From NCBI GenBank assembly GCA_029565675.1, contig JAKQNP010000003.1, positions 79,197 to 143,196 on the forward strand: a DNA stretch of 64,000 bases. The letters are read 5' to 3'. This document shows, piece by piece, positions 26,249 through 44,219 of the stretch (its first letter is position 1; each line of letters begins with the position of its first letter). The notes under the pieces were generated by a model that was given only the letters and a program-made list of their open reading frames with translations, had not been told where the DNA came from and did not search any database. The stretch is from a bacterium (GTDB lineage Bacteria; Zhuqueibacterota; Zhuqueibacteria; Residuimicrobiales; Oceaniaggregativiventaceae). The translations under genes were made by a program, and so were the position numbers.

Positions 26249-26531
26249 GAGCGACCCTCCCTCTAAACACACACGACGCCTGCGTATCTGTGGAAAATAC
26301 ACGCACAACGTGCCCATGATTTTTGCAGCAATGACGATGCGATCAGGAGCCTAAAAAGGCAAGGGAGAGGAACAGGGGGAAATGACCCATGCGCTTTTAT
26401 CTAAATGGATGCAATGCATTTGATCTGCGAATCGCATGCCAGCGATAAAGCAAGTCATTTAAAGATACAAAAAACTTGTGCAAAGCACAACATTATTATC
26501 AAAATTCTACCCGAAAACGAAACGGCACCTT

Positions 26532-31198: not shown

Positions 31199-31416
31199 CG
31201 ATTTTTTCCTTGTTGCACTACCCTGTATCTTTTCTGCAATTTACAAATTCACGCCAATGAATGCAAGGCTTTCACCACCCACTGCCAGGCAGGCCTGAAG
31301 TGCTTTGGGTGGATACATCCATTCGGAAGCAAACGATTCGTGGTTTAGCTTGTATGCAGCGTCAGACGGTCTGAACGACTGCATGAAAAGAGCAGCAAAA
31401 TCGGCTCCCGGCAGGA

Positions 31417-32565
31417 TCACATCGGGACAAAGTGGTTGGTGAGGCGAAAAGCCGTTGCGAGGTAGTCGGCAATGCGCTCGGCGGCGTGGCCATCACCATA
31501 AGGGTTTTGCGCCCGCGCCATTTCTTCATAAACTGCAGGATCGTTTAAAAGACGATCCGTTTCGGCTAGGATTCGATGCAGGTCTGTGCCGACCAGGCGA
31601 ACCGTACCGGCCTGCACTGCCTCCGGGCGCTCCGTTTCATCGCGCATGACCAGAACCGGTTTCCCCAACGAAGGTCCCTCCTCTTGAATACCGCCGGAAT
31701 CGGTTAGAATCAGATAAGAGCGATTCAGCAACGCCGCCAGGCGGCGATAGTCCACCGGTTGAATAAGATGCAATCGCTCAATTCCGGATAGAATTTCGTT
31801 AACCGGACTCTGGATATTCTGATTGAGATGCACTGGATAGACGACCTCGATATCAGGATGGCTTTCTACCAGAGCACGAAGGGCTGAACAGATCCGGCGA
31901 ATCGGTGCGCCGAAATTTTCCCGCCGATGGGCGGTTACCAGAATCAGGCGGTGACCTCTCGCGCAGAGAGAGTCGACAAAGTTCTGGTCAGGCTTGTGCT
32001 GCAATACCCAGTGCAAGGCATCGATGACTGTATTGCCAGTAACCGCGATTCTGGCATCCTCCACCCCTTCCTGCAAAAGGTTTTGCCGGTTGCCCTCGGT
32101 TGGAGCAAAATGGTAGGAAGCCACATTGCTGATCATCCGTCGATTGGCTTCTTCTGGGTAGGGTGAAAAGAGGTTAAATGTGCGCAATCCCGCTTCGATG
32201 TGGCCGACCGGAATAGCCGCGTAAAAAGCGGTTAAGGCGCCGATGAACGCAGTTGTGGTGTCTCCTTGTACCAAAACCAATTTCGGGCGCAATTCTTCCA
32301 AAACCTGACGAAATCCATGCACAGCGGATTCAGCGATTTGGTTGAGAGTTTGATTGGGCTGCATAATGTTCAGATCGATATCCGGTCGAATGCCAAACAA
32401 GTCCAAGACCTGATCCAGCATCTGGCGATGTTGTGAAGTCGAAACAACCGTCAATCGAAAACGCGGGTCATTCCGCAGCAACAACACAACCGGCGCCATT
32501 TTTATAGCCTCGGGGCGGGTACCAAAAAGAACCACCGTATTCAACGGCTTTTGGGAATCGGCCAC
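31417..32565 (-). CDS. wecB: UDP-N-acetylglucosamine 2-epimerase (non-hydrolysing)
   Basis: VVLFGTRPEAIKMAPVV ... STSQHRQMLDQVLDLFGIRPDIDLNIM ... HIEAGLRT pattern. Likely GTG start at 32565 behind an AAGGAG SD (ORF-track start 32589). Confidence 0.9.
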   Translation of the reverse strand: MADSQKPLNTVVLFGTRPEAIKMAPVVLLLRNDPRFRLTVVSTSQHRQMLDQVLDLFGIRPDIDLNIMQPNQTLNQIAESAVHGFRQVLEELRPKLVLVQGDTTTAFIGALTAFYAAIPVGHIEAGLRTFNLFSPYPEEANRRMISNVASYHFAPTEGNRQNLLQEGVEDARIAVTGNTVIDALHWVLQHKPDQNFVDSLCARGHRLILVTAHRRENFGAPIRRICSALRALVESHPDIEVVYPVHLNQNIQSPVNEILSGIERLHLIQPVDYRRLAALLNRSYLILTDSGGIQEEGPSLGKPVLVMRDETERPEAVQAGTVRLVGTDLHRILAETDRLLNDPAVYEEMARAQNPYGDGHAAERIADYLATAFRLTNHFVPM

Positions 32566-32635
32566 TCTGTCTCCTTTTTCACCAAGCATCTGCCATCGGC
32601 AACACCGGGGTCTTTATTGCTGGTCAATCAACTGG

Positions 32636-34426
32636 CTATTTGACCAAAGACAATTTAAGGGTGATATCTTGCGATTCAAACTGTATCCGGCAAAAATAAA
32701 GTCCGCTTGCCACAGGATTTTTTTGGTCATCGATTCCCGACCAGAAAATGCGGTGTTCTCCAGCATCTGCATCTCGATCCATCAACACAGCGATTTTTTC
32801 ACCGGCCAAATTGGTGATGGTGATTTGGGTGTGACCGTGTTCGGGCAAAGAAAAATGAAGCCACGTTCCTTCATTGAATGGATTGGGATATATGCCGGCA
32901 ACGATCCAATTCTGTGGTGCAGCGCCAATGAATACTCTATCGGATAGGGTGCTCGCGCCATCGGTGTCGATTTGATTGAGACGGTAATAGAGGGCGGTTG
33001 ATGGAGCGCTCTTATCGATATAGGTGTAGCGGTTCAATGCGCTGCTGGTTCCATGCCCGGGGACAAAGCCGATCTTTTCAAAATAAAGACCGTCGCTTGA
33101 TCGACAAATCTCGAATCCGAGATTATTCAACTCAGATGCGGTTTGCCAGGTCAAGCAAATACCGTTGGATTGACGAGAAAGGGACAAGCTTACCAGCTCT
33201 ACGCTGACCAAAGCGGTGTTTCCCTCCAGCGCCCTGATATAGCTGTCGTTAGAACCGCAAACCACATCCTCTGCACCATTGCCATTCAGATCACCAGCCG
33301 CCGCAATAGTTTTGATATCACCGCCGGCTTTAAATGTCCAGATAATTTCGCCTGAACGACCGCAAAGAGCAGCTGCCGTGTTGTCTCCAGTACCAACCGC
33401 GGCATCCGGAACCAAATCACCGTTGATATCCAGCAATGTACAAACCGTCCAGATATCACCATGAAAGGCAGTGTCCCATATTTTTTTGCCATCTATGCCT
33501 GAAAGAGCATAAACATGATCATCTGATGAACCGGCGATGCAATCCTGTCGGCCATCGCCATTGATATCATCCACGGCAGTAACGCATTGAATGTCTGCTC
33601 CTGCAGCAAAAGACCAGAGTTGTTGCCCCGTTTTGCCAGATAGGCAATGGACGCGGTCAGCAGCGGTGCCGGCGAGGCAATCATTGATCCCATCTGCATT
33701 GACATCTGAAATTTTTTCGACGCTCCAAACATCGGAAGAGGTCGAAAAACTCCAAAGCTGACGAGAAACACTGCTCTGCGCTTGGGCAGAAAGACAATAG
33801 ACCCGATCATCGGCAGCACCGGCAAAGCAGTCTGCATAGCCATCCTTATTGATATCCCCTGCATAGACAACTGACCAGACGTCACCCTGCGTGTTGAATT
33901 GCCAGAGGAGCACACCAACACCCAAACTGGCTCCTGAAATACAACAGATCCGGTTATCGCCTGTGCCAACCAGAGCATCAGCTTTTTTATCGCCGTTGAT
34001 ATCAGGGAGCGAAGCCACAGTCCAAACATCGCCGGTGACGCCGTATGACCAAATCCACTCGCCGAGTTTGCTGGGATCGCCGGAAATGCAATAAATCGTG
34101 TTGTCGGCAGCGCCGGCCAGACAATCAGCCTTGCCATCGCCATTGATATCGCCGAGCGACGCCACTTGCCAGACATCGCCACTGACTGTCGTCGACCACA
34201 ATTCAGCTCCTGCAGCCTTGCCGCCGCCTTCCAGACAATAAATCCGGTTATCTGAAGCGCCGGCAAAGACATCCACAATCCCGTTGCCACTCACATCGCC
34301 AGTCATTTGAACGCTGTTGACATACCAATCCGTGGTAGTGCTCCAAATAACAGCAGCATTGTTTTGCGCTGCTGCAGCTGCAGCAAACCACATGGTTATC
34401 CAGACAATCTTTTGTGCGAACTGCAT
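32636..34426 (-). CDS. FG-GAP/PQQ-like beta-propeller repeat protein with a T9SS C-terminal sorting domain
   Basis: At least 8 repeats of GD.NGDG.AD...G..D..IYC.SG. The C-terminus has IYPNPFNEGTWLHFSLP ... GLYFCRIQ ... LSLVK. Start moved to the ATG at 34426 (signal peptide MQFAQKIVWITMWFAAAAAAQ, AAGGAG SD). Confidence 0.8.
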   Translation of the reverse strand: MQFAQKIVWITMWFAAAAAAQNNAAVIWSTTTDWYVNSVQMTGDVSGNGIVDVFAGASDNRIYCLEGGGKAAGAELWSTTVSGDVWQVASLGDINGDGKADCLAGAADNTIYCISGDPSKLGEWIWSYGVTGDVWTVASLPDINGDKKADALVGTGDNRICCISGASLGVGVLLWQFNTQGDVWSVVYAGDINKDGYADCFAGAADDRVYCLSAQAQSSVSRQLWSFSTSSDVWSVEKISDVNADGINDCLAGTAADRVHCLSGKTGQQLWSFAAGADIQCVTAVDDINGDGRQDCIAGSSDDHVYALSGIDGKKIWDTAFHGDIWTVCTLLDINGDLVPDAAVGTGDNTAAALCGRSGEIIWTFKAGGDIKTIAAAGDLNGNGAEDVVCGSNDSYIRALEGNTALVSVELVSLSLSRQSNGICLTWQTASELNNLGFEICRSSDGLYFEKIGFVPGHGTSSALNRYTYIDKSAPSTALYYRLNQIDTDGASTLSDRVFIGAAPQNWIVAGIYPNPFNEGTWLHFSLPEHGHTQITITNLAGEKIAVLMDRDADAGEHRIFWSGIDDQKNPVASGLYFCRIQFESQDITLKLSLVK

Positions 34427-34452
34427 GACCATACTCTCCTTAAAACAAACTT

Positions 34453-35295
34453 TCAAGAACCCCAGCCATGCCAAAAGGTCAAGCCAATTCTTGTATAACG
34501 ATATTCTGAATCATTGGGATTTTCATAATCACCGCTGCGCGGGGTGACTTTGCCATTCAGAAATTCAACAAACAGATCAAAATCCAGATCATTCCAGGGT
34601 TTGACCCTAATCCCCAGTCCAGCCTCAGTTTTGTTGTTCCAGTAATCGCCGTTTATATCGGTCATCAGATAACTGACCCAATAGGCGTCAATCGCAGTCT
34701 TGTATAAGCGCAACAACCGAAAGCCAACTTTGCCATTCACATACAGGATGCCATTTCTGCGATCATTGCGAAAGTAAAAAAAATCGCCATAAATCTCATC
34801 CCACAGGGTGAGTGGGACTGTCGTATTCCAACGATGGACAGCTTCGCCGTCAAAACCTTGCCAAAATATCAATCCGGCCCGAACATCCGTATAGTCGGCA
34901 CCATCAGGCAATGTGCTCTCATCAGTTTTCATATAATGTCCATTGACAAGCTCCGTACAAAGAGCAAGATAAATCCGCTGAAAGAAGCGCAAGCGCGTAC
35001 CCACCATCAATTCAGCGCGGTTATTCCAAAAATCGCGATTGGCATCGCTGCCGATGCGTTGTTTGAAGTAAAGATCCATCGTACTGATGCCGAAAAGACC
35101 AAACCGCACACCTTCCAAAGCCTGCGCCATGGTGATGGTGTTGTCCTCGAGTTTGCCCATGTTTATGGTTTCATCGTAGACCTCGGCAAAAAGACGCGGA
35201 CGGAATTCGGCTTGTGCTGCAACCTGCACTACCGACGACAGCATAACCGCCATCAAAAACATAAACAGATGATGAATTGCGAATCGCTTTTTCAT
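34453..35295 (-). CDS. Secreted aromatic-rich protein, candidate periplasmic/outer-membrane (beta-barrel?) partner of the adjacent GT2 synthase
   Basis: Signal peptide MKKRFAIHHLFMFLMAVMLSSVVQVAAQA. Rich in W/Y/F/D/N with alternating hydrophobic patterns. 4-bp overlap with the upstream GT2 gene (translational coupling). Confidence 0.55.
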   Translation of the reverse strand: MKKRFAIHHLFMFLMAVMLSSVVQVAAQAEFRPRLFAEVYDETINMGKLEDNTITMAQALEGVRFGLFGISTMDLYFKQRIGSDANRDFWNNRAELMVGTRLRFFQRIYLALCTELVNGHYMKTDESTLPDGADYTDVRAGLIFWQGFDGEAVHRWNTTVPLTLWDEIYGDFFYFRNDRRNGILYVNGKVGFRLLRLYKTAIDAYWVSYLMTDINGDYWNNKTEAGLGIRVKPWNDLDFDLFVEFLNGKVTPRSGDYENPNDSEYRYTRIGLTFWHGWGS

Positions 35296-36587
35296 AGACG
35301 AGTTCTTTCTTTTTCCGTGTCAGTTTCAGGAATAAGAAAACGCTCGGTCTTGTCCCAAATGCCAACGCGATGTCGGCGGGCATCAAAAAACAAACCGCGA
35401 AAAACGATAAAAAGCCAAAGCTGACAATAGGTAAAATACATCAAGATGGTGTAGAAAATGTTCTTGGGCGAATCTTCATTCTCGTAGGACAAAACCAAAA
35501 GAATTTCCATAATGAACAAAACAAAAGCGGAAAGCCAGACAGCAAAATAGGGGCCAGGCACTTTGAGAGCGACAATTCCCAATCCACTCAAGACGAAGAG
35601 CAAATGCGACAGCACGATGGCCAATAAAAAAAGATAATAAAGGGCGAACAAATAAAAGAACTCAGTCACCAGAAATCGACTCTTGAGGCGAACGGCATCC
35701 ATGGCAAATTTGCGCAACACATAATTGTTGCCCCGTACCCAACGTGTGCGCTGCCGTATCCATACTTTTAATGTCTCCGGTTCTTGCTCCCAGGTTACAC
35801 TGAGAGGAATAAACTTTATGTAGAAGCCTTTTTGATAGATTCGCACACTCAACTCTGAATCCTCAGTTATCGCTTTTTCATCCCAGCCACCGCATTGCTG
35901 CAAAACCGACCTTTTAATAATATAATTGGTGCCGGGTAAGATCGCGATTCGCGACAGGCAGAATCGCCCTGCCTGCAAGATCCACTGGAAGGCCAGTGTT
36001 TCGATGTTGATTAATCGTGTTAATCCGTTTCGATTTCGATTGAGTGTTCGAAATTTTCCAATAACTGCCGCACATTTTTCATCAGTCAACAAATGAGGAA
36101 CAAGTTTGCGCAAAGAATCGGATTCCGGACGATTGTCAGCGTCATAAATGGCGATGGTTTCGTATTTGCAGTGTTCCAGTCCTTGGTTGAGTGCATGCGC
36201 TTTGCCATGCCCGGTTTGACCCTTGGCCAAATTGATCAACGACACACGGGAATCTTTTTTTATATAATCTTCGACTATCGTCTGTGTGGCATCATGTGAG
36301 CCATCATTGATAACAAGAATTTCTAGACGATCAGACGGATAATCGAGCTTTGACAGACGATCGATTGTGGACGCGATTACACGCTCTTCATTATGGGCAG
36401 GGACCATAATCGATATCGCAGGCCAGGATTGTAGGCTGTGATTGTCTTGTGCATCGATGCGCAACAAATGCTGGCGATAGCGATATCCGGCAAAAGCCAG
36501 GATCACCTGGTATCCAATCATCAGCCAAATGATCACAACGCTTACGAGAAAGAGAGAATCCAGGACCGGGTGTACCAGAGGGATCAT
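35292..36587 (-). CDS. Processive family-2 glycosyltransferase (cellulose/PNAG/chitin-synthase-like, PgaC/BcsA/NodC class), integral membrane
   Basis: N- and C-terminal TM helices flank a GT2 core with D, DxD (IYDADN), TED (ITEDSE) and QxxRW (RQRTRW) motifs. Confidence 0.85.
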   Translation of the reverse strand: MIPLVHPVLDSLFLVSVVIIWLMIGYQVILAFAGYRYRQHLLRIDAQDNHSLQSWPAISIMVPAHNEERVIASTIDRLSKLDYPSDRLEILVINDGSHDATQTIVEDYIKKDSRVSLINLAKGQTGHGKAHALNQGLEHCKYETIAIYDADNRPESDSLRKLVPHLLTDEKCAAVIGKFRTLNRNRNGLTRLINIETLAFQWILQAGRFCLSRIAILPGTNYIIKRSVLQQCGGWDEKAITEDSELSVRIYQKGFYIKFIPLSVTWEQEPETLKVWIRQRTRWVRGNNYVLRKFAMDAVRLKSRFLVTEFFYLFALYYLFLLAIVLSHLLFVLSGLGIVALKVPGPYFAVWLSAFVLFIMEILLVLSYENEDSPKNIFYTILMYFTYCQLWLFIVFRGLFFDARRHRVGIWDKTERFLIPETDTEKERTRL

Positions 36588-36677
36588 TCATCCTCCATGG
36601 TTCTTGATAGGGTACTGAAAATCACTTGGGCAAGTCTTTTCCCCAAACTGCACCAAAATCGCAATCACAATAACTCT

Positions 36678-39600
36678 TCAGGCAGTTTGCCCAGATCGCT
36701 TGCGCAGGGTGTGGCGAACATAGATAATGATGAGCGAAAAACCGGCAAAAAAACCGATCAAGACAATGAGACCCGACAAGAACAAACTGGCGAATTTTAA
36801 AAACTGTGTCCCACTGCTCATGGTAAAAATGATCGCCTGATGCTCACCGGAAGGCAGTTTGATCGAATATCCCAACTCTCCAACAGTTCCAGTGGCTGAG
36901 AATTTTTTCCCGTCTAGAAGAATGGCACGGGGCTGTTCGTTTAGGATGACCCAATTTGGCATGGGCGAGGAATAGTGAATGGCAACTCCGCGGCCAATTA
37001 GATGGGCTGAGATCAGTTCGCCGGACAGGTCAACGATACGAACCGATGATTCAAATCGATTCATCATACTCTTCAAACGTCCGACCGTCTGCAGACGATG
37101 GTGCCCGATGGGCAACGTCACCCGGCCGCGATCATAGACTGGCCAGATATCGCCATCCAGCAAGACATCCTGATGTCGTTCGCCATCGACGCGCACGATG
37201 ACCGTATAAGATGTTTCGATTTCCCAAACGCACTCATCCAATCTTTCCTTTGCCTGGGCAGCAAAGGCATTCGGCAACAACGGAAAATCGACTTGATAGA
37301 TGCTGGCTTCAGAAAACAAAGAAACCCGGTTAACTTCATTCGCAGCAATTGCGGTATTGCGATACAGCTCGAGTCCACTCAACTGAGCAGTCGGACTGTG
37401 ACTGACTTGACTCTGACGATAGGGTTCCACAGCGATATCGAGAACCAGCGGTAAATCTCCATATATTTGGGCCATTTTTTTAAACCGTTCCGGCCCAAGA
37501 TGCCAGGTTTCTCGTGGATCTTCAAACTGCAAGGTGTAGGGGAAATCTTTCCTCAATTCAAGAATTTTTTTAATATCGATGCCCAAAGATTTGGCTGTAT
37601 TCGCTGCAATTTCACTGTCCATCGAAGTGATCATAAGATCCCAATCGCTCTGATGTTTTTTTTGCAATTCAAACAAGAAACCGAGAAAGTGGCGGTACAA
37701 ATCGACTACCTGTTCGGACCGAAAACGGAAAAAACTTGCAGCTGCATTCGAATTGTGCTGCCAAAAGTAGGGCGATCGAGGATTGAATAGAGCCAACGGA
37801 TCAAATCCGGCTTGCTTAAAAAAGACCTGGCGAATATCCTGGTTCATCGGCGTGAAAGCTTCTGGTGCATCAAATCTAAGAGCCGATTCATAGTTGAGCT
37901 CTACCGAATTAATTCCATCCCAATCAAAGGACAACAAAAGGTTCTGCAATTCATTAAAGACCGCTTCACGGCAGGCCTCGATATTCAACGCCATGAGTTT
38001 GCGCCAACCGACGACTGCATCCATGCCGAGTGCATTCTTCTCTCGCCACTCTGGGAAACGCGTCCAGAACACATCATTGACATGCGGCAATTCCAACCAC
38101 AAGTAAACAACCATCGCATTTTGATGGGCCAGTCGAATCAGCCGTTCATAGTCGTATTGATAGTCTGCATAAAAATGCCAACCCGATACATAGATCGCTC
38201 GCACACCGTTGCTGCGCCACATTTTGATCAGATCCTCGATGCTGATATCTTCTCGGTCACCAGGTTCAAAATAGACTTCAATAGCACGGCGATGAACCAT
38301 GGGCTTGAGCGAAAAGTGTCGATTGAGCAGATCGATCAAATAGGGAAATCGGGCATAACCGCCATCGGTCACCGGATCCAGCAGGGCACCAAAATGGAGA
38401 TATTTGCCTTCGCCAAATTCACCCCCCGTTACAACAGGCTGTGCAGAATCTGCGGTAGAATAATAAACAATGAAATTTGCATCAGTATCGAAACCCTGCA
38501 ACTCTCCGCCCGGTCGCCAAATGATTTCAACCTGCGGGTAATATTCGTCAACAACAGAATTGATCAGCCGATTTTTCTCTGTACGATACACTCCAATCAT
38601 TTCGCTCATCTGCGAAACCTGTTCCATTACCACATTCAGACCTTTTTGTACACCACTCATTATAAACAGGCGTTGCTGTTCAGTCAGGATGCGAGCGGCA
38701 CTTTGAGGAATGATCAATAGATTGATATGGCTGGGAATTTCAAATAAGCTCTGACAAACCAAAGAATCCGCATCAATACCAACACTTGAAAGAGCACAAA
38801 ACCAGTTGCTTTGACTGCGGCCAAGCTGTTCAGCAGACGAGGTATCGATTAAAATAGCCGCACAGACAGGATTGGACTGGGAGTCAAACAACGGATCGGT
38901 TTTACCGAATACCGATTCAGACAGGTCAGAAAGACTAAATTGTCCGAGTCCTTTTCTCCCTTTAGGATATCCTGGGGCTTGTTTCTGCAGCACATACATC
39001 CATCCCAAAGGTACGTCAATCGTTCGAGTTATTCTACCCGTAACCAGCGTATCAGAAATAGTTTGCCGTTGCAGCTTACCGTTTTCATCGATAAAAAATT
39101 CATGAACTCGACAACCTTGGCAATCGAGCTCGACTGTTCCACTGCCGGTTAACACACAATAATTAGGAGCCTGAACGATATTTTGGGTCATTCTTGGACT
39201 GGAGAATTGGTAAGAGAGCTCTTTCATACCCTGAACGATCTTTTTCAAAACAGACAGATCGATAAATGGATGAAAAAAGAAGCTGGCGATTCCATCCCGA
39301 ACCAGCAATTGATGCTGAGCAGCAGTTAGGATAGCAGCGGCTTCCTGCTGGTCGAGAGGAACATAACCGAGGTTCTCCGGAATGATCCGTCCTCCAGACA
39401 TATGACGGTTGATCAAATAGGGTACAAGTTGATCTGAGCCATGCAGATCAAGTGTTTGCCGGCGTTCATAAGCAGTGCTGAAATAGCGATTGATCACTCC
39501 GTAATCGAGTTGAGACGCTGCATAATGGGGTGTTTCCCAGGTTACCGGGTAAAGCTCGGCTCGTTCCATTTCGTTCAGAGCCGTCTCGATTCTTTGCCGC

Positions 39601-41654
39601 ACATATTCCCGCGAATCGCTGAACAGCGGTCCGTTGGATAGAGCATCCCAAAATTCATAGTCGGCAGTGCTTTCTCCGCGCAATTGATGCGTTGATCCGT
39701 GTAAAACAATGGTTCCACCTGAGCGGACGAGCTCTTGAAGCGCATCAATAAACTCGGGTCGATCAGAAATCGACACTGCAAGATTAGACTCAGGATCGAG
39801 ATAAAAGGGTACCACTGAGACAGAAAAAGGTACGGATTCGGCTTTCAGCAGACGCGCAATCTTGCGCAGGACTTTAGGATCGGTCAGGGGATGAACATCC
39901 TCGATGCGCAACAGAGCCAACGGTTTCTGTGCATGATATTCTCGCAGAATATCGTGCAATAGATCGCTGAAAACGATATGACGGCCGCCTTCAATAACAA
40001 AAGCTGTCGGCAGATCGGCAATATACCAAAATTGACCACTCTGGACAATATAGGGCCATTGCTGATCCCCTTTCACAAGCCAGGACCAAACATGACAGCG
40101 TTCTTCATCGTTGATCTTGATCGCATTCCAGGCCGGATCGACTTTGACCAGATCGATCTGTTTATAACGCACCGATATTCCCTCATCATGGCGTTTTTCG
40201 ATAAAACTCATGCCATGTGAATTGCCAGTCATGTTTAGAAATTGCTCCACTCCATTGTTCATCCATACCAACGTGCCAGGATAGCGATCGATGGTCTGCA
40301 AAAATTCAACCGGATAATCAAACTGCGGATCGACGCCTACACAAAAGAGGGCGTCGCTGTTTTCGATCACCTGGTCCAGCGAATCAGGCACTGGTGCAAT
40401 CGGCAGCAAGGAAACTCGAGCCCGAAAATGGGTGAGCAGACTGGCGACCTGGCGGGCATCGTTTTCACCCAAAGGATCAAAGCAGACAACGACGCGACAA
40501 GTCGTGCGTTCCTCTACAGCGGCATAAAATGCATCCCAAGCCTGAAGTTTGTCAAGCTGGTGGGTATCATAGATGTCGATATCTGGCAATCCAGCGCGTC
40601 GGGCTGCCCGTATTGCAGCCGCCAAATCACCAGGTCGCACTACAACTGCACCAAAGGGAGTAATTTCCAAATGAGCGACAATCCGTGCACGACCATTGAC
40701 CTGAGAGAGGACAGTTCGAGCTGCGCCCTCGACCCATTCAGGTGTGAATGTTTGTTTCTGTTTTACTTCATTCTCCCATTGTTGCCACATAAATTCCATT
40801 ACCAGCCAATCAGGTCTATCTTCGCCCCGCAATAAACCGGCAAGATCGAAACCTGTTAACTGCTTTTGCTGTTCTGGAGTCAATACAGCTCCATCGCTAT
40901 GAGCGCTGACGATATGGGTGACACTGGCTATCCGCTTATGCCTGTGAATCAGAGCAATCGAAGCTTGCAGGGTCTGCAACAATCCAGAGGAAGAGGACAT
41001 CAAGCTGTCTGCAGCCGCAAGGCAGCTGCCGCAGTAGCAACGGTTTTGGTTCCAGGCAATGACCGGCTCAGCTATATCGATGCCATCGAGATCGGGATAA
41101 CGGCGCAAGATTTCGTCGATAAACCCCAGCCACCATTCACGGACTTTAGGATTGGCGGGGCAAAGAAAGGCACTTTCATTGTCAGGTTTATACTCTTTCC
41201 CATCAGCTTTTCGGACGCGCCAATCAGGATTTTTTTGCCAGGCCAATGCATGCTGAAAGGCAGGAAGCCAAGCCATGATTCGAATCTGCCTAGGGTGAGC
41301 GGCGCGCAACATATACTTGAGCAAATCGCGACGCCCATAATCGGCTTGCTCATTAAGAGTATAATCAGTACGATACTTGGCACCATGGACCGGATCGTAT
41401 GCTTTAAAAAAGATGGTGTTGATACCCCTATCGCTCCATTCAGCAACCAGAGATTCACAAAAGCGGGCGATATTGTCGGGATCGGTGTAATAGTAGCTCG
41501 GATCGAAACGCACAGCTTGGATGGTACCGTCCTGCGGATCAAGAAGCAGGTCGCTGGCAAATTCTGCATATAGATTACCAACGCTGCAAAAAATAGCAGC
41601 GATCAACAACAGAATTGAATTTTTCATTCGACTCATCAAAAGCCCAATTTGCAT
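36678..41654 (-). CDS. Giant (1658 aa) multidomain polysaccharide-modifying protein: signal peptide, two GHL10/DUF187-like TIM-barrel glycoside-hydrolase-like domains flanking a DUF2334-like (polysaccharide deacetylase-fold) domain, C-terminal TM anchor
   Basis: An N-terminal signal peptide. Residues ~40-260 have GINTIFFKAYDPVHGAKYRTDY ... HPRQIRIMAWLPAF (GHL10-like). Residues ~610-830 have LRIEDVHPLTDPK ... GGTIVLHGSTHQ (DUF2334-like). Residues ~1130-1330 have GVRAIYVSGWHFYADYQ ... MVVYLWLELPHV (second GHL10-like). The C-terminus has FLSGLIVLIGFFAGFSLIIIYV (TM). Family names are from memory of motif patterns and are not verified. Confidence 0.75.
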   Translation of the reverse strand: MQIGLLMSRMKNSILLLIAAIFCSVGNLYAEFASDLLLDPQDGTIQAVRFDPSYYYTDPDNIARFCESLVAEWSDRGINTIFFKAYDPVHGAKYRTDYTLNEQADYGRRDLLKYMLRAAHPRQIRIMAWLPAFQHALAWQKNPDWRVRKADGKEYKPDNESAFLCPANPKVREWWLGFIDEILRRYPDLDGIDIAEPVIAWNQNRCYCGSCLAAADSLMSSSSGLLQTLQASIALIHRHKRIASVTHIVSAHSDGAVLTPEQQKQLTGFDLAGLLRGEDRPDWLVMEFMWQQWENEVKQKQTFTPEWVEGAARTVLSQVNGRARIVAHLEITPFGAVVVRPGDLAAAIRAARRAGLPDIDIYDTHQLDKLQAWDAFYAAVEERTTCRVVVCFDPLGENDARQVASLLTHFRARVSLLPIAPVPDSLDQVIENSDALFCVGVDPQFDYPVEFLQTIDRYPGTLVWMNNGVEQFLNMTGNSHGMSFIEKRHDEGISVRYKQIDLVKVDPAWNAIKINDEERCHVWSWLVKGDQQWPYIVQSGQFWYIADLPTAFVIEGGRHIVFSDLLHDILREYHAQKPLALLRIEDVHPLTDPKVLRKIARLLKAESVPFSVSVVPFYLDPESNLAVSISDRPEFIDALQELVRSGGTIVLHGSTHQLRGESTADYEFWDALSNGPLFSDSREYVRQRIETALNEMERAELYPVTWETPHYAASQLDYGVINRYFSTAYERRQTLDLHGSDQLVPYLINRHMSGGRIIPENLGYVPLDQQEAAAILTAAQHQLLVRDGIASFFFHPFIDLSVLKKIVQGMKELSYQFSSPRMTQNIVQAPNYCVLTGSGTVELDCQGCRVHEFFIDENGKLQRQTISDTLVTGRITRTIDVPLGWMYVLQKQAPGYPKGRKGLGQFSLSDLSESVFGKTDPLFDSQSNPVCAAILIDTSSAEQLGRSQSNWFCALSSVGIDADSLVCQSLFEIPSHINLLIIPQSAARILTEQQRLFIMSGVQKGLNVVMEQVSQMSEMIGVYRTEKNRLINSVVDEYYPQVEIIWRPGGELQGFDTDANFIVYYSTADSAQPVVTGGEFGEGKYLHFGALLDPVTDGGYARFPYLIDLLNRHFSLKPMVHRRAIEVYFEPGDREDISIEDLIKMWRSNGVRAIYVSGWHFYADYQYDYERLIRLAHQNAMVVYLWLELPHVNDVFWTRFPEWREKNALGMDAVVGWRKLMALNIEACREAVFNELQNLLLSFDWDGINSVELNYESALRFDAPEAFTPMNQDIRQVFFKQAGFDPLALFNPRSPYFWQHNSNAAASFFRFRSEQVVDLYRHFLGFLFELQKKHQSDWDLMITSMDSEIAANTAKSLGIDIKKILELRKDFPYTLQFEDPRETWHLGPERFKKMAQIYGDLPLVLDIAVEPYRQSQVSHSPTAQLSGLELYRNTAIAANEVNRVSLFSEASIYQVDFPLLPNAFAAQAKERLDECVWEIETSYTVIVRVDGERHQDVLLDGDIWPVYDRGRVTLPIGHHRLQTVGRLKSMMNRFESSVRIVDLSGELISAHLIGRGVAIHYSSPMPNWVILNEQPRAILLDGKKFSATGTVGELGYSIKLPSGEHQAIIFTMSSGTQFLKFASLFLSGLIVLIGFFAGFSLIIIYVRHTLRKRSGQTA

Positions 41655-41876
41655 TCTTTTTTGCGCAAACGAGATCTGCCATCGAGCGCTGCTGGCAATC
41701 CTTGCGATGTGAGTGTTAGCGAAATACAGAAATCACCTAGCCTGCTTTGCAGGGCTGCTGCAAACATTGGACCGTTTCCGGGGACAAAAATCACCCGTCT
41801 ATGTGCTTTGTCTTCTGCTTGTCACTGTATGCAATCGACTGAAATGCATCGGTTTGAATCGATCTTACAATTTTGC

Positions 41877-41920
41877 AACAAAAAAGAAATGGGCGATCAC
41901 CGGAATGGTGTATCGCCCAT
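41877..41920 (-). terminator. Rho-independent terminator downstream of the M2 peptidase gene
   Basis: A perfect 10-bp stem AATGGGCGAT/ATCGCCCATT (41887-41896/41911-41920). On the minus strand it is followed by UCUUUUUU (A run at 41877-41885). Confidence 0.7.
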
Positions 41921-41939
41921 TGATCCTGGTTGGGTATGA

Positions 41940-43607
41940 TCAGCGAACAAACTGTTCGACAAAATAGGCGGGGGTTAGCGGTTCACCGGTGGCGTTTTCG
42001 ATCATTTCATTCCATCGGACTTGCCGCGCCGGCTCAAAGACCTTTTTGCGCAGAAAATCGCCGACTTGCGTTTCGCCGATCAGCACAAAATCTTGCCCAT
42101 CTTTAATCTTGAGCACATCTGTTGCCAGGGTGTGATGCAGTTGTGACGCCAGCAATTCGCCGAGCAAATAGTTGTGATAATAGCAGGGCGCAATGGTAAA
42201 ATGAATCTTGGCCGCCCAATCCGGTTCCTGCCGATTTGGCGGTGGTGTGACCTGCTGATACTTGGAAACCAAATCCCACCACAACTGGTTCAGATCCTGC
42301 TCGGGATCCGCATAGAGTTGCTTTTCGAATTCGTACATCACCATGGCCCAGCGCGCGAAAATCATCTGTTTGAGCTGCATATATTTGCTGCTCACTTGCT
42401 CGATATCGGCGCGCTGTTGGTCGTCCAGATCGAGCATCTTTTGCATCCAGGCCGCATCGCGGCTGCAACGGCCAAAAAACATGGCAATCGCTTCAGTGGT
42501 GAACATGTGTGCCGGTCCGCGCAAAAGATAGGGCGTTTTGAAATCCTGATGCTTGTCATAAACCCCATGACCCAGCTCATGCAGCATGGTTTCCATCCAG
42601 CTCTCGTTGTTTTTGACGTTGCAGAGGATGCGCACATCGCCTTGTCGATCGATATGGGTGCAAAACGCATGCGGATTTTTGCCTTCGCGCTCATAGAGGT
42701 CGCTGTTGGTGAGAATTTCATCCACCGGCAGCCCGATCCCGGCGTAGAAATCCCGGGCCAGTTCGACGACATCGTGATCGGCGTAATAGCTGTCCAGATC
42801 GATCGCATACACCAGCGGTGTTTCTTGAAAAAACGGATCATGATAGTGCCAGGGCAGCAAACCATTGACGCCGATACCGTAAAGATCAGCCAAAATCGAA
42901 TCCAACTCGGTTTTCAAGCGGGTATAGGGCTCTTCGGTCAACGCGAACAATTCGGCAAAAAGGGCATCGAGTTCGTCGGCGTTCTGCTCCGTGGTCGTCA
43001 AGGCCAGGGTATGATAATTTTCAAAACCCAGACTTTGTGCAGCCTGATTGCGCAGCTTGACCAATTCGATGATCTCCTCGGCAACCACTCCACCGACCTG
43101 TTTGCTCGCCAGCCAGGCGTCCCGGCGAATCCGTGAATTGGTTTCGTTTTTGAGAATCTGCAAAATGTCGTTGCTGGTCACGGTGCGGCCATCCAGGGTG
43201 GCGCGAAAAGTGCTGAATTTTTGTTCCACTTGCGCGCCACGATCGACGATTTGCTTCAACAAAGGTGCTTCGATCTGGTTTTCGAGAAACGCATAGTAGA
43301 GCAAATCCAGCTGGCGGACCAGCTTTTTGTCTTTGATCGCGCCCGATTTGCGAAATTGGTCGATCCTGGCGAACACGGCGCTGTCCGCATAGATCTGCCG
43401 CAATTGCAGATTCAATTCGCCAAACCGCTGATAATCCTCTGCAGAGCCGGTCACCGCAGCGTTCCAATAGGTGAGATTGGTCTCTTTTTCCAGCGGTTCA
43501 ATCGCCGCAACCTGTGCCTGCAAAAATTCTTTCACTTCACGCTCCTCTTGATTGACACTGCACCCTGCGATCAGAGCAGCGAGCATCAGCAACACACTTC
43601 TTTTCAT
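41940..43607 (-). CDS. M2-family (ACE-like peptidyl-dipeptidase) zinc metallopeptidase, lipoprotein
   Basis: HELGHGVYD (HEXXH) plus TTEAIAMFFG (the EAIGD-like third ligand) arranged as in angiotensin-converting-enzyme homologs. Lipobox LAALIAGCS. Start at the ATG after an AGGAGG SD (ORF-track start 43661). Confidence 0.65.
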   Translation of the reverse strand: MKRSVLLMLAALIAGCSVNQEEREVKEFLQAQVAAIEPLEKETNLTYWNAAVTGSAEDYQRFGELNLQLRQIYADSAVFARIDQFRKSGAIKDKKLVRQLDLLYYAFLENQIEAPLLKQIVDRGAQVEQKFSTFRATLDGRTVTSNDILQILKNETNSRIRRDAWLASKQVGGVVAEEIIELVKLRNQAAQSLGFENYHTLALTTTEQNADELDALFAELFALTEEPYTRLKTELDSILADLYGIGVNGLLPWHYHDPFFQETPLVYAIDLDSYYADHDVVELARDFYAGIGLPVDEILTNSDLYEREGKNPHAFCTHIDRQGDVRILCNVKNNESWMETMLHELGHGVYDKHQDFKTPYLLRGPAHMFTTEAIAMFFGRCSRDAAWMQKMLDLDDQQRADIEQVSSKYMQLKQMIFARWAMVMYEFEKQLYADPEQDLNQLWWDLVSKYQQVTPPPNRQEPDWAAKIHFTIAPCYYHNYLLGELLASQLHHTLATDVLKIKDGQDFVLIGETQVGDFLRKKVFEPARQVRWNEMIENATGEPLTPAYFVEQFVR

Positions 43608-44219
43608 CTCGTCCTCCTGTTCGTTCTTGGCTTTGAAAAATAAAAATACAAACTCGACCATTATACTCTACCGGCAATGCGACTGCAAATCGCGAATTGC
43701 CGCTTAGTTGTCAAACCACACTGCAGGCCGGCTTGAATCCGCAACATCGCCACGCTCGGCAATCGTCCCACGTTCATCTTTTATGTCGCACCGGTGATGT
43801 GCCGTCCTAAGATGGGACGCCGAGATCCAATTTCAATAATATCTTAGGCCTGACACGACTTTCATAAGGCATCGATTGGATACAAATTCGATTGACTTTA
43901 CCCTCTGGTCAGTGCAGTAGCGTTGGATGCTTTCCTCTGTCAGGACACCACGGCTATCTTGTAAGTTAGCAATCGCAATGGAAAAACCAAAACAGATTTT
44001 TCAGCCGTTTTCGGCATCAAAATACTTGTAATAACGGACAAATGTATGTACTTTTAATTTTATTTGTCCTGATCAATCAGATCGACCACAAAGGAGGCGC
44101 TAAAAACACCGGATGGCAATCGAGTCACTGCCTGCTGATTTTTATAACCCAAAAGCTTATTGTGTCAAGTGGTTATGGCAGTTTGGCCGAGCCATTGCAA
44201 AAGAACAAGGGAAAAAGCA

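What the first reader, a model, noticed from the sequence alone, without database searches (positions are those of the whole stretch)
36678..41654. 1658-aa multidomain protein: GHL10-like / DUF2334-like / GHL10-like with a C-terminal TM anchor
Two copies of a YngK-type glycoside-hydrolase-like TIM barrel (GINTIFFKAYDP...RIMAWLPAF and GVRAIYVSGWHFYADYQ...VVYLWLELPHV) bracket an LRIEDVHP... domain of the DUF2334 / CE4-like deacetylase fold. About 350 aa of unassigned sequence lie between them. Single-domain versions of these modules occur as separate genes in firmicute EPS operons (from memory: B. subtilis ydaJKLMN, pelA). A single fused polypeptide of this size next to a synthase would be an unusual architecture.
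Basis: partly seen in the sequence, partly recalled or inferred. Interest (0 to 1): 0.65.

Follow-up and report, generated by a model that had tools for sequence, protein, structure and literature searches.

The report
Membrane-anchored giant exopolysaccharide-modifying enzyme
This is a real, conserved 1658-residue secreted protein tethered to the inner membrane that combines a predicted sugar deacetylase with two sugar-cleaving-type barrels, always sits next to a polysaccharide synthase gene, and most likely tailors a still-unknown biofilm polysaccharide in the way PelA and PgaB do, but using an uncharacterised enzyme family.

Summary
The ORF (36678-41654, minus strand) is intact, and about 50 protein clusters at 34-51% identity share its full length. 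It is not a mis-merge.

Pfam finds DUF2334 (166 bits) and a marginal N-terminal GHL6/GHL10 barrel. Pfam misses the C-terminal barrel, but profile comparison (hhalign 97.9%, E 3.5e-13) and confident AlphaFold models show it is homologous.

The domain order is: signal peptide, (β/α)8 barrel, GH42M/ThuA-like α/β domain, DUF2334 (β/α)7 domain, β-sandwich, second α/β domain, second barrel, β-sandwich, TM helix.

The first four domains follow the order of PelA, which is the first or second PDB match for each half. Each barrel also matches the PgaB hydrolase domain and Cwp19.

A PgaC-like GT2 synthase lies directly downstream in 63 of 65 informative loci from many phyla. A shorter class (~1320 aa) lacks the N barrel. 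WecB is often linked.

The predicted deacetylase residues and one face of the TM helix are invariant in all 69 sequences examined.

Best reading: a periplasmic, synthase-docked de-N-acetylase/glycosidase for a HexNAc (possibly ManNAc-containing) exopolysaccharide. It is a new variant of a known kind, common in MAGs, and never studied experimentally.

The parts
36678..41654 (-). Whole gene: 1658-aa (1652 from M7) exported, C-terminally anchored multidomain protein
   Evidence: Intact ORF. About 50 full-length homolog clusters. Conserved along the whole length.
41565..41654 (-). Signal peptide (res 1-30, ...VGNLYA|EF). Some homologs have lipoprotein-type signals.
   Evidence: Hydrophobic N-terminus. 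N-termini of homologs. The cleavage site is inferred.
40512..41519 (-). N-terminal (β/α)8 barrel, GHL6/GHL10-type (res 46-381). Candidate catalytic pair is E196 (end of β4) and E330 (end of β7). Carries a Cys165/206/208/211 cluster.
   Evidence: Pfam GHL6 36.8 bits, GHL10 27.1 bits. AF2 pLDDT about 90. Foldseek matches Cwp19 (TMt 0.71), the PgaB C-terminal domain (TMt 0.72), GH42 and PelA. The listed residues are kept in 29 of 30 long-class proteins. E196, H328 and E330 are kept in stand-alone relatives.
40017..40499 (-). Mixed α/β domain X1 (res 386-546), of the GH42-domain-B / ThuA / class-I-GATase-like type
   Evidence: AF2 secondary structure. GH42 and GH151 matches span barrel plus this domain, about 650-690 columns. 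Its position corresponds to PelA's mixed α/β domain.
39195..39980 (-). DUF2334 (YdaL-type) (β/α)7 domain (res 559-820), a predicted metal-dependent de-N-acetylase. Key residues: R583-x-E585-D586, H652/H656, E707-x-P-H710-Y711, R786-D787, H795.
   Evidence: Pfam PF10096 at 166 bits. Weak NCBIfam hit to a GlcNAc-phosphatidylglycerol deacetylase. All listed residues are invariant in 69 of 69 sequences from both classes. β/α alternation in the AF2 model.
38979..39194 (-). β-sandwich 1 (res 821-892), followed by a disordered linker (897-917)
   Evidence: AF2 model. Its position corresponds to PelA's β-rich domain.
38325..38867 (-). Mixed α/β domain X2 (res 930-1110), Glyco_hydro_42M-like
   Evidence: AF2 model. 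A short-class homolog scores Pfam Glyco_hydro_42M at 27 bits (cutoff 25.8) at the equivalent position.
37245..38297 (-). C-terminal (β/α)8 barrel (res 1120-1470), a distant paralog of the N barrel. Acidic residues: E1252 (β4), E1378/D1379 (β6), D1406 (β7), E1429, E1449, D1456.
   Evidence: hhalign against the N barrel gives 97.9%, E 3.5e-13. AF2 pLDDT above 90. Foldseek matches Cwp19 (TMt 0.61) and BpsB/PgaB GH domain (TMt 0.60). The residues are invariant in the short class and relaxed in the long class.
36825..37244 (-). β-sandwich 2 (res 1471-1610)
   Evidence: AF2 model.
36681..36815 (-). C-terminal TM helix (res ~1614-1646) plus a basic cytoplasmic tail. One helix face is conserved: S1623, S1627, I1630, G/S1634, L1641, Y1645.
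   Evidence: Hydropathy. Modelled as a long helix. The conserved face is seen in 68 sequences from both classes.
35292..36587 (-). Partner gene: 431-aa processive GT2 synthase (PgaC/IcaA-like) with motifs YDAD148, TED241 and QRTRW279
   Evidence: Pfam and NCBIfam. 26% identity to E. coli PgaC over 372 aa, E 5e-30. Directly downstream of the giant gene in 63 of 65 informative loci.
34453..35295 (-). 280-aa secreted protein with no known family; a putative outer-membrane β-barrel. Start codon overlaps the GT2 stop.
   Evidence: No Pfam, NCBIfam or PDB hit. Signal peptide, amphipathic β segments and an aromatic C-terminus. Present in 16 of 21 long-class loci and no short-class locus.
32636..34474 (-). 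FG-GAP β-propeller protein with a T9SS C-terminal sorting domain; an operon member in long-class loci
   Evidence: Pfam and NCBIfam. Conserved position after the 280-aa gene.
31417..32589 (-). WecB, non-hydrolysing UDP-GlcNAc 2-epimerase (makes UDP-ManNAc); last gene of the cluster
   Evidence: TIGR00236 at 494 bits. Linked to the giant/GT2 pair in 17 of 21 long-class and 6 of 28 short-class loci.

Best explanation
The protein is the periplasmic modification subunit of an uncharacterised synthase-dependent exopolysaccharide system.

Shown here:
- It is a Sec-exported protein held at the inner membrane by a C-terminal TM helix.
- It has seven folded domains: barrel, α/β, DUF2334, β-sandwich, α/β, barrel, β-sandwich.
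- It is encoded immediately upstream of a PgaC-type processive GT2 synthase in essentially every genome that has it.

Inferred mechanism:
- The GT2 polymerises and translocates an N-acetylhexosamine polymer. The frequent WecB linkage suggests that UDP-ManNAc is a donor.
- The DUF2334 domain is a CE4/PelA-like metal-dependent de-N-acetylase. D586, H652 and H656 would bind the metal, E585 would be the base (activated by R583), and H795 would be the acid. It would partially deacetylate the nascent chain.
- The N barrel would cleave or trim the polymer using a clan-GH-A-like Glu196/Glu330 pair. The C barrel would also cleave or trim it, or in some long-class members merely bind it.
- The invariant face of the TM helix docks the enzyme onto the synthase. 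This is comparable to the BcsB anchor on BcsA or PgaD on PgaC.
- In this lineage the 280-aa protein would provide the outer-membrane conduit.
For: Architecture and conservation.

Domain assignments: Pfam DUF2334 at 166 bits and GHL6 at 36.8 bits. AF2 models have mean pLDDT 88-90 and pTM 0.81-0.85.

Structural matches: PelA (9cgy) ranks first for the C half (E 1.3e-10) and second for the N half (E 2.2e-16, 858 aligned columns). The PgaB C-terminal domain gives TMt 0.72, Cwp19 gives 0.71, and GH42 enzymes also match. PelA's published order of hydrolase barrel, mixed α/β, (β/α)7 deacetylase and β-rich domain is collinear with residues 46-892. PelA's residues H526/D528/D530/H600/H604/H761 compare with R583/E585/D586/H652/H656/H795 here (PMC12022489).

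Residue conservation: all candidate deacetylase residues are invariant in 69 of 69 sequences. E196, H328 and E330 are conserved in fused and stand-alone barrels.

Partner synthase: the GT2 has DxD/TED/QxxRW motifs and matches PgaC at E 5e-30. It is adjacent in 26 of 26 long-class and 37 of 39 short-class loci across KSB1, Fibrobacterota, Bacteroidota, Elusimicrobiota, Acidobacteriota, Ignavibacteriota and Desulfobacterota.

Substrate hint: WecB linkage, and conserved wecB-synthase linkage was the published argument for a UDP-ManNAc substrate of NfrB (PMC8669469).

TM helix: the face S1623/S1627/I1630/G-S1634/L1641/Y1645 is conserved across phyla.

Genetics: B. subtilis YdaL, the DUF2334 prototype, is reported as essential together with YdaM and YdaN for a GT2-dependent EPS (PMC13274460).
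Against: - There is no biochemical evidence for any DUF2334 protein.
- The DUF2334 domain does not hit the CE4 Pfam model. Profile comparison with E. coli PgaB's CE4 domain found nothing.
- The multi-domain Foldseek matches have low global TM scores (about 0.3), so only the domain order and individual domains match, not the quaternary packing.
- The polymer is unknown. WecB is absent from most short-class neighbourhoods (6 of 28).
- The GT2 scores far below the PgaC/IcaA equivalog cutoff (168 against 422 bits).
- The C barrel's acidic residues are variable in the long class, and the window protein has A1408 where the short class has invariant N. That barrel may therefore not be catalytic here.
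- TM-synthase docking is inferred only from conservation and gene adjacency.
Confidence: 0.62

Rival explanations
1. The protein is chiefly a structural co-synthase or translocation scaffold, analogous to BcsB or YdaN. It would guide the chain from the synthase across the periplasm. The DUF2334 and barrel domains would act as carbohydrate-binding modules rather than enzymes.
For: It has BcsB-like topology: signal peptide, large periplasmic part and a single C-terminal TM helix with a conserved face. Adjacency to the GT2 is obligatory. The ydaLMN genes are reported as essential for EPS production in B. subtilis. The C-barrel acidic residues are relaxed in the long class.
Against: Nineteen polar or charged DUF2334 residues arranged like a CE4/PelA metal site are invariant across phyla. 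The Glu196/Glu330 pair is conserved even in stand-alone secreted barrels. No BcsB domain is detected. A scaffold role and a catalytic role are not mutually exclusive.
Confidence: 0.15
2. The protein is a degradative, dispersal-type enzyme. It would hydrolyse and deacetylate an exogenous or self-made polysaccharide for turnover or nutrition, and would not take part in biosynthesis.
For: The barrels resemble GH42, GH151, GH156 and Cwp19-type hydrolases. Stand-alone secreted relatives of the N barrel exist.
Against: It is membrane-anchored beside a synthase in 63 of 65 informative loci, within what reads as a biosynthetic operon that also carries WecB. No transporter or SusC/D-type uptake genes are conserved nearby. 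PelA and PgaB also carry hydrolase domains yet act in biosynthesis (PMC12022489).
Confidence: 0.1
3. The DUF2334 domain acts on a non-polysaccharide substrate, such as a GlcNAc-lipid or peptidoglycan. The cluster would then remodel the envelope rather than make an exopolysaccharide.
For: The only named NCBIfam similarity is to an N-acetylglucosaminyl-phosphatidylglycerol deacetylase, and it is weak (E 0.0046). Cwp19, a structural match for the barrels, is a cell-wall protein.
Against: The NCBIfam hit is far below cutoff (16 against 280 bits). The partner GT2 has the processive-synthase QxxRW and TED motifs and C-terminal TM segments typical of polymer-translocating synthases. The multidomain PelA-like layout argues for a polymer substrate.
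Confidence: 0.08
4. The long ORF is an assembly or annotation artefact that merges several genes.
For: None found.
Against: There is no stop codon or frameshift. The identical gene is present on an independent metagenome contig. About 50 collinear full-length homologs exist and the domain boundaries are conserved.
Confidence: 0.01

Closest known systems
PelA (Pseudomonas Pel system; GH166 hydrolase + CE21 deacetylase; PDB 9cgy)
   Same: Both are periplasmic bifunctional modification enzymes of a synthase-dependent HexNAc polymer. The four-domain order is the same: (β/α) barrel hydrolase, mixed α/β ThuA/GATase-like domain, (β/α)7 metal deacetylase, β-rich domain. The predicted catalytic motifs fall in the same order with similar spacing. 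PelA is the first or second PDB structural match for each half.
   Different: No sequence-level relationship was detected. The deacetylase here is DUF2334 and the barrel is GHL6/10-type, not GH166. This protein has an extra C-terminal α/β-barrel-β-sandwich module and a C-terminal TM anchor. Its partner is a PgaC-like GT2, not PelF (a GT4). There are no PelB/C/D/E/G homologs in the operon.
PgaB / BpsB / IcaB (PNAG system; CE4 deacetylase + GH153 barrel)
   Same: Both combine a deacetylase with a (β/α)8 GH-like barrel in one periplasmic protein, encoded beside a PgaC-type GT2. Both barrels match the PgaB C-terminal domain structurally (TMt 0.60-0.72). The short class has PgaB's order, deacetylase first and barrel second.
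   Different: No CE4 (PF01522), GHL13 or PgaB model hit. hhalign to PgaB is weak, 31% for the N barrel only. The protein is much larger, with additional domains. It has a TM anchor rather than a lipoprotein anchor. There is no PgaA or PgaD. The GT2 is not a PgaC ortholog (168 against 422 bits).
Bacillus subtilis YdaL of the ydaJKLMN EPS operon (DUF2334 prototype)
   Same: They share the Pfam family PF10096, and JGI names homologs 'YdaL'. The gene order matches: the DUF2334 gene lies immediately upstream of a GT2 synthase (ydaL-ydaM). The ydaLMN genes are reported as essential for that EPS (PMC13274460).
   Different: YdaL is a much shorter protein. Its sequence could not be retrieved here, so domain-by-domain correspondence is untested, including whether YdaN corresponds to the C-terminal module. 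[quoted passage not shown] No such regulator is in this operon.
GH42 / GH151 glycosidases and GHL6/GHL10 hypothetical hydrolases (e.g. Cwp19, YngK/YddW)
   Same: They share the barrel plus following class-I-GATase-like domain arrangement. The Glu after β4 and the Glu at the end of β7 are placed as in clan GH-A. From memory, the C...CxCxxC cluster after the β4 Glu is the pattern that binds zinc in Thermus GH42 β-galactosidase. A weak sequence hit to GH151 6tvk covers that motif.
   Different: Sequence similarity is marginal (GHL6 36.8 bits). No activity is known for GHL6. The Cys cluster is absent from stand-alone relatives. Here the barrels are fused to a deacetylase and anchored beside a synthase.
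BcsB (cellulose synthase subunit)
   Same: The topology is the same: a large periplasmic protein with a single C-terminal TM helix, encoded next to a processive GT2. The conserved TM face suggests docking to the synthase.
   Different: No BcsB domain is present. The folds are unrelated. BcsB is not an enzyme.

Membership tests
DUF2334 (Pfam PF10096; YdaL family) | Score above the Pfam gathering threshold over the full model | tested here: met
   166 bits against a cutoff of 26, covering model positions 2-202 of 203 at residues 580-809. The same holds in short-class proteins.
GHL6 (Pfam PF14871) | Score above the gathering threshold | tested here: met
   N barrel scores 36.8 bits against a cutoff of 35, which is marginal. 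The C barrel is not detected in the window protein. A short-class C barrel gives only E 0.0065.
GHL10 (Pfam PF02638; YngK/YddW/Cwp19) | Score above the gathering threshold | tested here: inconclusive
   The window protein scores 27.1 bits against a cutoff of 27.9. Many homologs carry a precomputed PF02638 hit. Stand-alone relatives score 35-38 bits. The structural match to Cwp19 has TMt 0.71.
CE4 (NodB homology; Pfam PF01522) | Sequence membership, plus motifs MT1-MT5 with a D-H-H metal triad, a catalytic base Asp and a catalytic acid His | tested here: not met
   No PF01522 hit, and hhalign against the PgaB CE4 domain is negative. An analogous invariant pattern is present: E585-D586, H652-x3-H656, H795. 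It may therefore work like CE4 but is not a sequence member. The geometry of the site was not tested.
PelA family (GH166 + CE21) | Four-domain order of hydrolase barrel, mixed α/β, (β/α)7 deacetylase and β-rich domain | tested here: met
   AF2 domain order compared with the published PelA domains. Foldseek gives E 2.2e-16 over 858 columns.
PelA family (GH166 + CE21) | Sequence homology to PelA and operon context pelB-G | tested here: not met
   No sequence hit to PelA in PDB searches with a single sequence or a profile. About 10% identity in the Foldseek alignment. The operon has a GT2 and none of the Pel genes.
PgaB (PNAG deacetylase/hydrolase) | CE4 N-terminal domain plus GH153 (GHL13) C-terminal domain, in a pgaABCD context | tested here: not met
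   No PgaB, CE4 or GHL13 model hit. The similarity is structural only. No PgaA or PgaD is present.
Processive GT2 synthases (BcsA/PgaC/chitin synthase type), for the partner gene | D, DxD, TED and Q(R/Q)xRW motifs, with flanking TM segments | tested here: met
   NDGS94, YDAD148, TED241 and QRTRW279. TM segments lie at the N-terminus and at about 305-370.
PgaC/IcaA equivalog (TIGR03937), for the partner gene | Score above the NCBIfam equivalog cutoff | tested here: not met
   168 bits against a cutoff of 422, and 26% identity to E. coli PgaC.
BcsB | BcsB domain (PF03170) | tested here: not met
   No hit. Only the topology is analogous.
Clan GH-A-type retaining glycosidase (N barrel) | Glu at the end of β4 (acid/base) and Glu at the end of β7 (nucleophile) facing the barrel's C-terminal face | tested here: inconclusive
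   E196 follows strand 191-195 and E330 ends strand 324-330 in the AF2 model. Both are conserved. The 3-D geometry and distance could not be measured, and the activity is untested.

The most novel reading that the evidence does not exclude
The giant protein and its GT2 form a minimal two-protein synthase/modification machine that is phylogenetically widespread (KSB1, Fibrobacterota, Bacteroidota, Acidobacteriota, Elusimicrobiota and others). It would make a previously undescribed, partially de-N-acetylated ManNAc-containing (ManN/ManNAc or GlcNAc/ManNAc) exopolysaccharide. In this reading DUF2334 founds a new carbohydrate-esterase family, and the C-terminal TM helix acts as an obligatory activating subunit of the synthase. 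The modifying enzyme would then be physically part of the polymerase, rather than a separate periplasmic factor as in the Pel and PNAG systems.
Probability: 0.25. Interest if true: 0.75.

Novelty: new variant of a known kind. Interest (0 to 1): 0.55.

Why it matters
Synthase-dependent exopolysaccharides (cellulose, PNAG, Pel, alginate) are central to biofilm biology. Each known HexNAc system relies on a periplasmic deacetylase/hydrolase.

This locus defines a further system of that type. It is found in hundreds of mostly uncultured species. Its modifying enzyme is built around DUF2334, a domain with no known activity, and is tethered beside the synthase.

Characterising it would do four things:
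- assign a function to DUF2334/YdaL, which would also clarify the B. subtilis yda system;
- probably add a new carbohydrate-esterase family, and clarify the GHL6/GHL10 'hypothetical hydrolases';
- identify a new matrix polymer in environmentally abundant phyla;
- test whether a modification enzyme can double as a membrane-embedded synthase partner.

Tried and rejected
1. PDB sequence searches with the single protein and with a 39-sequence profile found nothing significant. The best hits were a GH151 fucosidase at E 0.009 and a GHL15 protein at E 0.19.
2. A second homolog search using the family profile returned the same 51 proteins.
4. hhalign of each module against single E. coli PgaB and YbcH sequences gave only N barrel vs PgaB 313-464, at 31% probability.
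5. The GT2 compared with E. coli NfrB gave only 25% identity, E 1e-4. It is therefore not an NfrB-type synthase, despite the shared WecB linkage.
6. Promoter and terminator scans of 31000-44200 showed no enrichment over shuffles and did not define the operon ends.
7. Literature searches for DUF2334, for YdaL with deacetylase, and for a GlcNAc-phosphatidylglycerol deacetylase found no biochemical characterisation.
9. A homolog search with the GT2 returned only generically named family members.
10. A profile of the 280-aa protein against the PDB gave no hits.
11. Recent internal duplication as the origin of the N barrel was considered and rejected. Its nearest relatives are stand-alone ~400-aa barrels, not C barrels of the short class.
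Full report
**Observation.** The minus strand of the window carries one uninterrupted ORF at 36678-41654, 1658 codons long. The identical gene occurs on an independent ENA metagenome contig, where the caller starts it at M7 to give 1652 aa. About 50 clusters of 1630-1770-aa proteins at 34-51% identity align over 97-100% of the query. Conservation is spread over the whole length, with no junk linkers except residues ~897-917. Mis-merging of several genes is therefore excluded.

**Domain content.**
- Pfam gives DUF2334 at residues 580-809 (E 1.1e-48, 166 bits).
- For residues 68-194 Pfam gives GHL6 (36.8 bits, cutoff 35), GHL10 (27.1 bits, cutoff 27.9) and a weak DUF4015 hit. It gives nothing for the C-terminal 850 residues.
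BLASTP of the two segments gives E 1e-5. hhalign of sub-alignments cut from the family alignment gives 97.9% probability, E 3.5e-13 over 207 columns for residues 40-390 against 1115-1465. No other pair of segments is related.
- AlphaFold2 models of the two halves are confident: residues 32-830 have pLDDT 88.1 and pTM 0.85, and residues 821-1658 have pLDDT 89.5 and pTM 0.81.
- The resulting map is: signal peptide (1-30); (β/α)8 barrel (46-381); mixed α/β domain X1 (386-546); DUF2334 (β/α)7-like domain (559-820); β-sandwich (821-892); disordered linker; mixed α/β domain X2 (930-1110); (β/α)8 barrel (1120-1470); β-sandwich (1471-1610); TM helix (~1614-1646); basic tail.
- A short-class homolog scores above threshold for Pfam Glyco_hydro_42M at the X2 position.

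**Structural neighbours.**
- Foldseek against the PDB puts the Pel modification enzyme PelA (9cgy) first for the C half (E 1.3e-10). PelA is second for the N half (E 2.2e-16, 858 aligned columns for a 799-residue query and an 821-residue target).
- GH42 and GH151 enzymes match barrel plus X1 over ~650-690 columns.
- The best compact matches for the barrels are Cwp19, a GHL10 protein (TMt 0.71 and 0.61), and the PgaB/BpsB glycoside-hydrolase domain (TMt 0.72 and 0.60).
- The PelA structure paper describes hydrolase barrel (37-292), mixed α/β domain with ThuA/PhzE/IFT52 similarity (293-498), (β/α)7 deacetylase (499-792) and β-rich domain (793-937). Its catalytic residues are H526, D528 (base), D530/H600/H604 (metal), E723 and H761 (acid) (PMC12022489).
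- Residues 46-892 of the present protein follow the same four-domain order. The invariant residues R583-x-E585-D586, H652-x3-H656 and H795 fall in the same order with similar spacing. This mapping is by motif and spacing only; I could not superpose coordinates.

**Family and context.**
- A scan of one genome per GTDB species found 386 loci encoding relatives.
- The 80 best, plus one locus fetched earlier, fall into two classes. The long class resembles the window protein and occurs in KSB1-like and unclassified MAGs, Fibrobacterota, and some MAGs labelled Eubacteriales or Desulfobacteraceae. The ~1310-1340-aa class starts at X1 and lacks the N barrel. It occurs in Bacteroidota, Elusimicrobiota, Acidobacteriota, Ignavibacteriota, Syntrophobacter and MAGs labelled Chromatiales.
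- A homolog of the window's GT2 (47-68% identity) starts within 400 nt downstream on the same strand in 26 of 26 long-class and 37 of 39 short-class loci with enough flank. The two exceptions have it a few kb away.
- The GT2 is a processive synthase. It has YDAD148, TED241 and QRTRW279, and is 26% identical to E. coli PgaC over 372 aa (E 5e-30). It is well below the PgaC/IcaA equivalog cutoff (168 against 422 bits) and barely similar to NfrB. Its closest database relatives carry only generic names.
- WecB (UDP-GlcNAc 2-epimerase) is linked in 17 of 21 long-class and 6 of 28 short-class loci. One Bacteroidota MAG even shows a single WecB-giant ORF.
- A 280-aa secreted protein of no known family, and an FG-GAP propeller with a T9SS sorting domain, accompany only the long class.
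- In the window the order is giant, 90 nt gap, GT2, 280-aa gene (4-nt overlap), FG-GAP, WecB, then topA.

**Catalytic-site conservation (30 long and 39 short sequences).**
- All candidate DUF2334 residues are invariant in both classes: R583, E585, D586, H652, T655, H656, D665, E667, E707, P709, H710, Y711, R732, E760, R786, D787, F793 and H795. D670 is invariant in 68 of 69.
- In the N barrel, 29 of 30 long-class proteins keep E196 (just after β4), E287, H328/E330 (end of β7) and the Cys165...Cys206-x-Cys208-xx-Cys211 cluster.
- An exhaustive HMMER search with the N barrel found only 245 relatives (E≤1e-3) among 1.84 billion representatives. Many are stand-alone ~380-420-aa proteins with signal peptides that pass GHL10 or GHL6. 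They keep E196 (38 of 41) and H328 and E330 (36 of 41 each) but lack the Cys cluster.
- No such stand-alone gene lies near the short-class loci. The N barrel was therefore probably recruited by gene fusion in the long-class lineage.
- The C barrel's acidic residues (E1252, E1378/D1379, D1406/N1408, E1429) are invariant in the short class. They are variable in the long class (for example D1406 in 15 of 30, and the window has A1408). This fits relaxed constraint once a second barrel was present.

**Membrane anchor.** Every homolog ends in a hydrophobic helix followed by Arg/Lys. Positions S1623 (68 of 68), S1627 (62 of 68), I1630 (67 of 67), G/S1634, L1641 and Y1645 form one conserved helical face across both classes. 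This is unusual for a passive anchor and suggests specific packing against another membrane protein. The invariably adjacent synthase is the obvious candidate. That is an inference.

**Interpretation.** The most economical reading is a periplasmic, synthase-associated modification enzyme of a synthase-dependent N-acetylhexosamine exopolysaccharide. It would be functionally analogous to PelA and PgaB. DUF2334 would de-N-acetylate the polymer, and one or both barrels would cleave or bind it. The WecB linkage suggests that UDP-ManNAc is a substrate; the same kind of linkage was used to argue this for NfrB in E. coli (PMC8669469). B. subtilis YdaL, after which JGI names these proteins, is reported together with YdaM and YdaN as essential for the YdaM (GT2)-dependent EPS. 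Its activity is unknown (PMC13274460, PMC5422440). I found no literature on DUF2334 biochemistry.

Rival readings are a pure scaffold, a degradative enzyme, or a lipid/peptidoglycan substrate. They are less well supported but not excluded.

**Membership.**
- The protein is a member of DUF2334 and marginally of GHL6. It is borderline for GHL10.
- It is not a sequence member of CE4, PelA (GH166/CE21), PgaB (CE4/GH153) or BcsB.
- It resembles PelA in domain order and PgaB in logic.

**Novelty and limits.**
- The architecture is already in public databases under the name 'DUF2334 domain-containing protein' and is common in MAGs, so it is not a unique oddity. The system appears undescribed and uncharacterised.
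- I rate it a new variant of a known kind, of moderate interest.
- Untested here: any enzymatic activity, the identity of the polymer, the 3-D geometry of the active sites, TM-synthase contact, the correspondence to YdaL/YdaM/YdaN sequences, and the fold of the 280-aa protein.

Noticed in passing
L068:3196-8178 (Bacteroidota MAG JBGOVN010000017.1): A single ORF of 1660 aa reads WecB (339 aa, 51% identical to the window's WecB), then a basic/hydrophobic segment, then a short-class giant protein. It may be a Rosetta-stone fusion linking the epimerase to the system. It may also be a sequencing error in one MAG.
   Followed up: partly
window 34453-35295 (-): A 280-aa secreted protein with no Pfam, NCBIfam or PDB relatives. 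It has an internal two-fold repeat (D-x-N-x-D-F/Y-W-N-N-R/K-x-E at ~84-95 and ~213-224), about 12-14 amphipathic β segments and an aromatic C-terminus. It is found only in long-class operons (16 of 21). A role as the outer-membrane export barrel is possible but unverified.
   Followed up: partly
window 32636-34474 (-): An FG-GAP/VCBS β-propeller protein with a T9SS C-terminal sorting domain, embedded in the operon and conserved at that position in long-class loci. It also passes the Pfam lambda-carrageenase propeller model (68 bits). It could be a surface polysaccharide-binding or polysaccharide-cleaving partner.
   Followed up: no
window residues 1120-1470 of the giant protein (37245-38297) and homologs: The acidic residues of the C barrel are invariant in the short class but variable in the long class, which has gained the N barrel. 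The pattern looks like relaxation or subfunctionalisation after domain accretion.
   Followed up: partly
window 12737-14824 (-): A 695-aa protein that fuses a GT2 domain, a CoA_binding_3 domain and a partial bacterial sugar transferase (Bac_transf) domain. This is an unusual GT2 / initiating-transferase fusion elsewhere in the window.
   Followed up: no
window 26532-28109 (-), 24659-26317 (-), 57859-59238 (+): Three Kelch-repeat β-propeller proteins with FlgD_ig-type C-terminal domains, in a window that also carries a T9SS-sorted FG-GAP protein. This suggests a lineage rich in secreted propeller proteins (FCB group, KSB1-like).
   Followed up: no
short-class loci, e.g. L032:15115-16353, L081:15111-16496, L038:15204-16550: A conserved ~410-460-aa ORF with no Pfam hit lies directly downstream of the GT2 in 13 loci, mostly Bacteroidota. 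It may be the short-class counterpart of an export or accessory component.
   Followed up: partly
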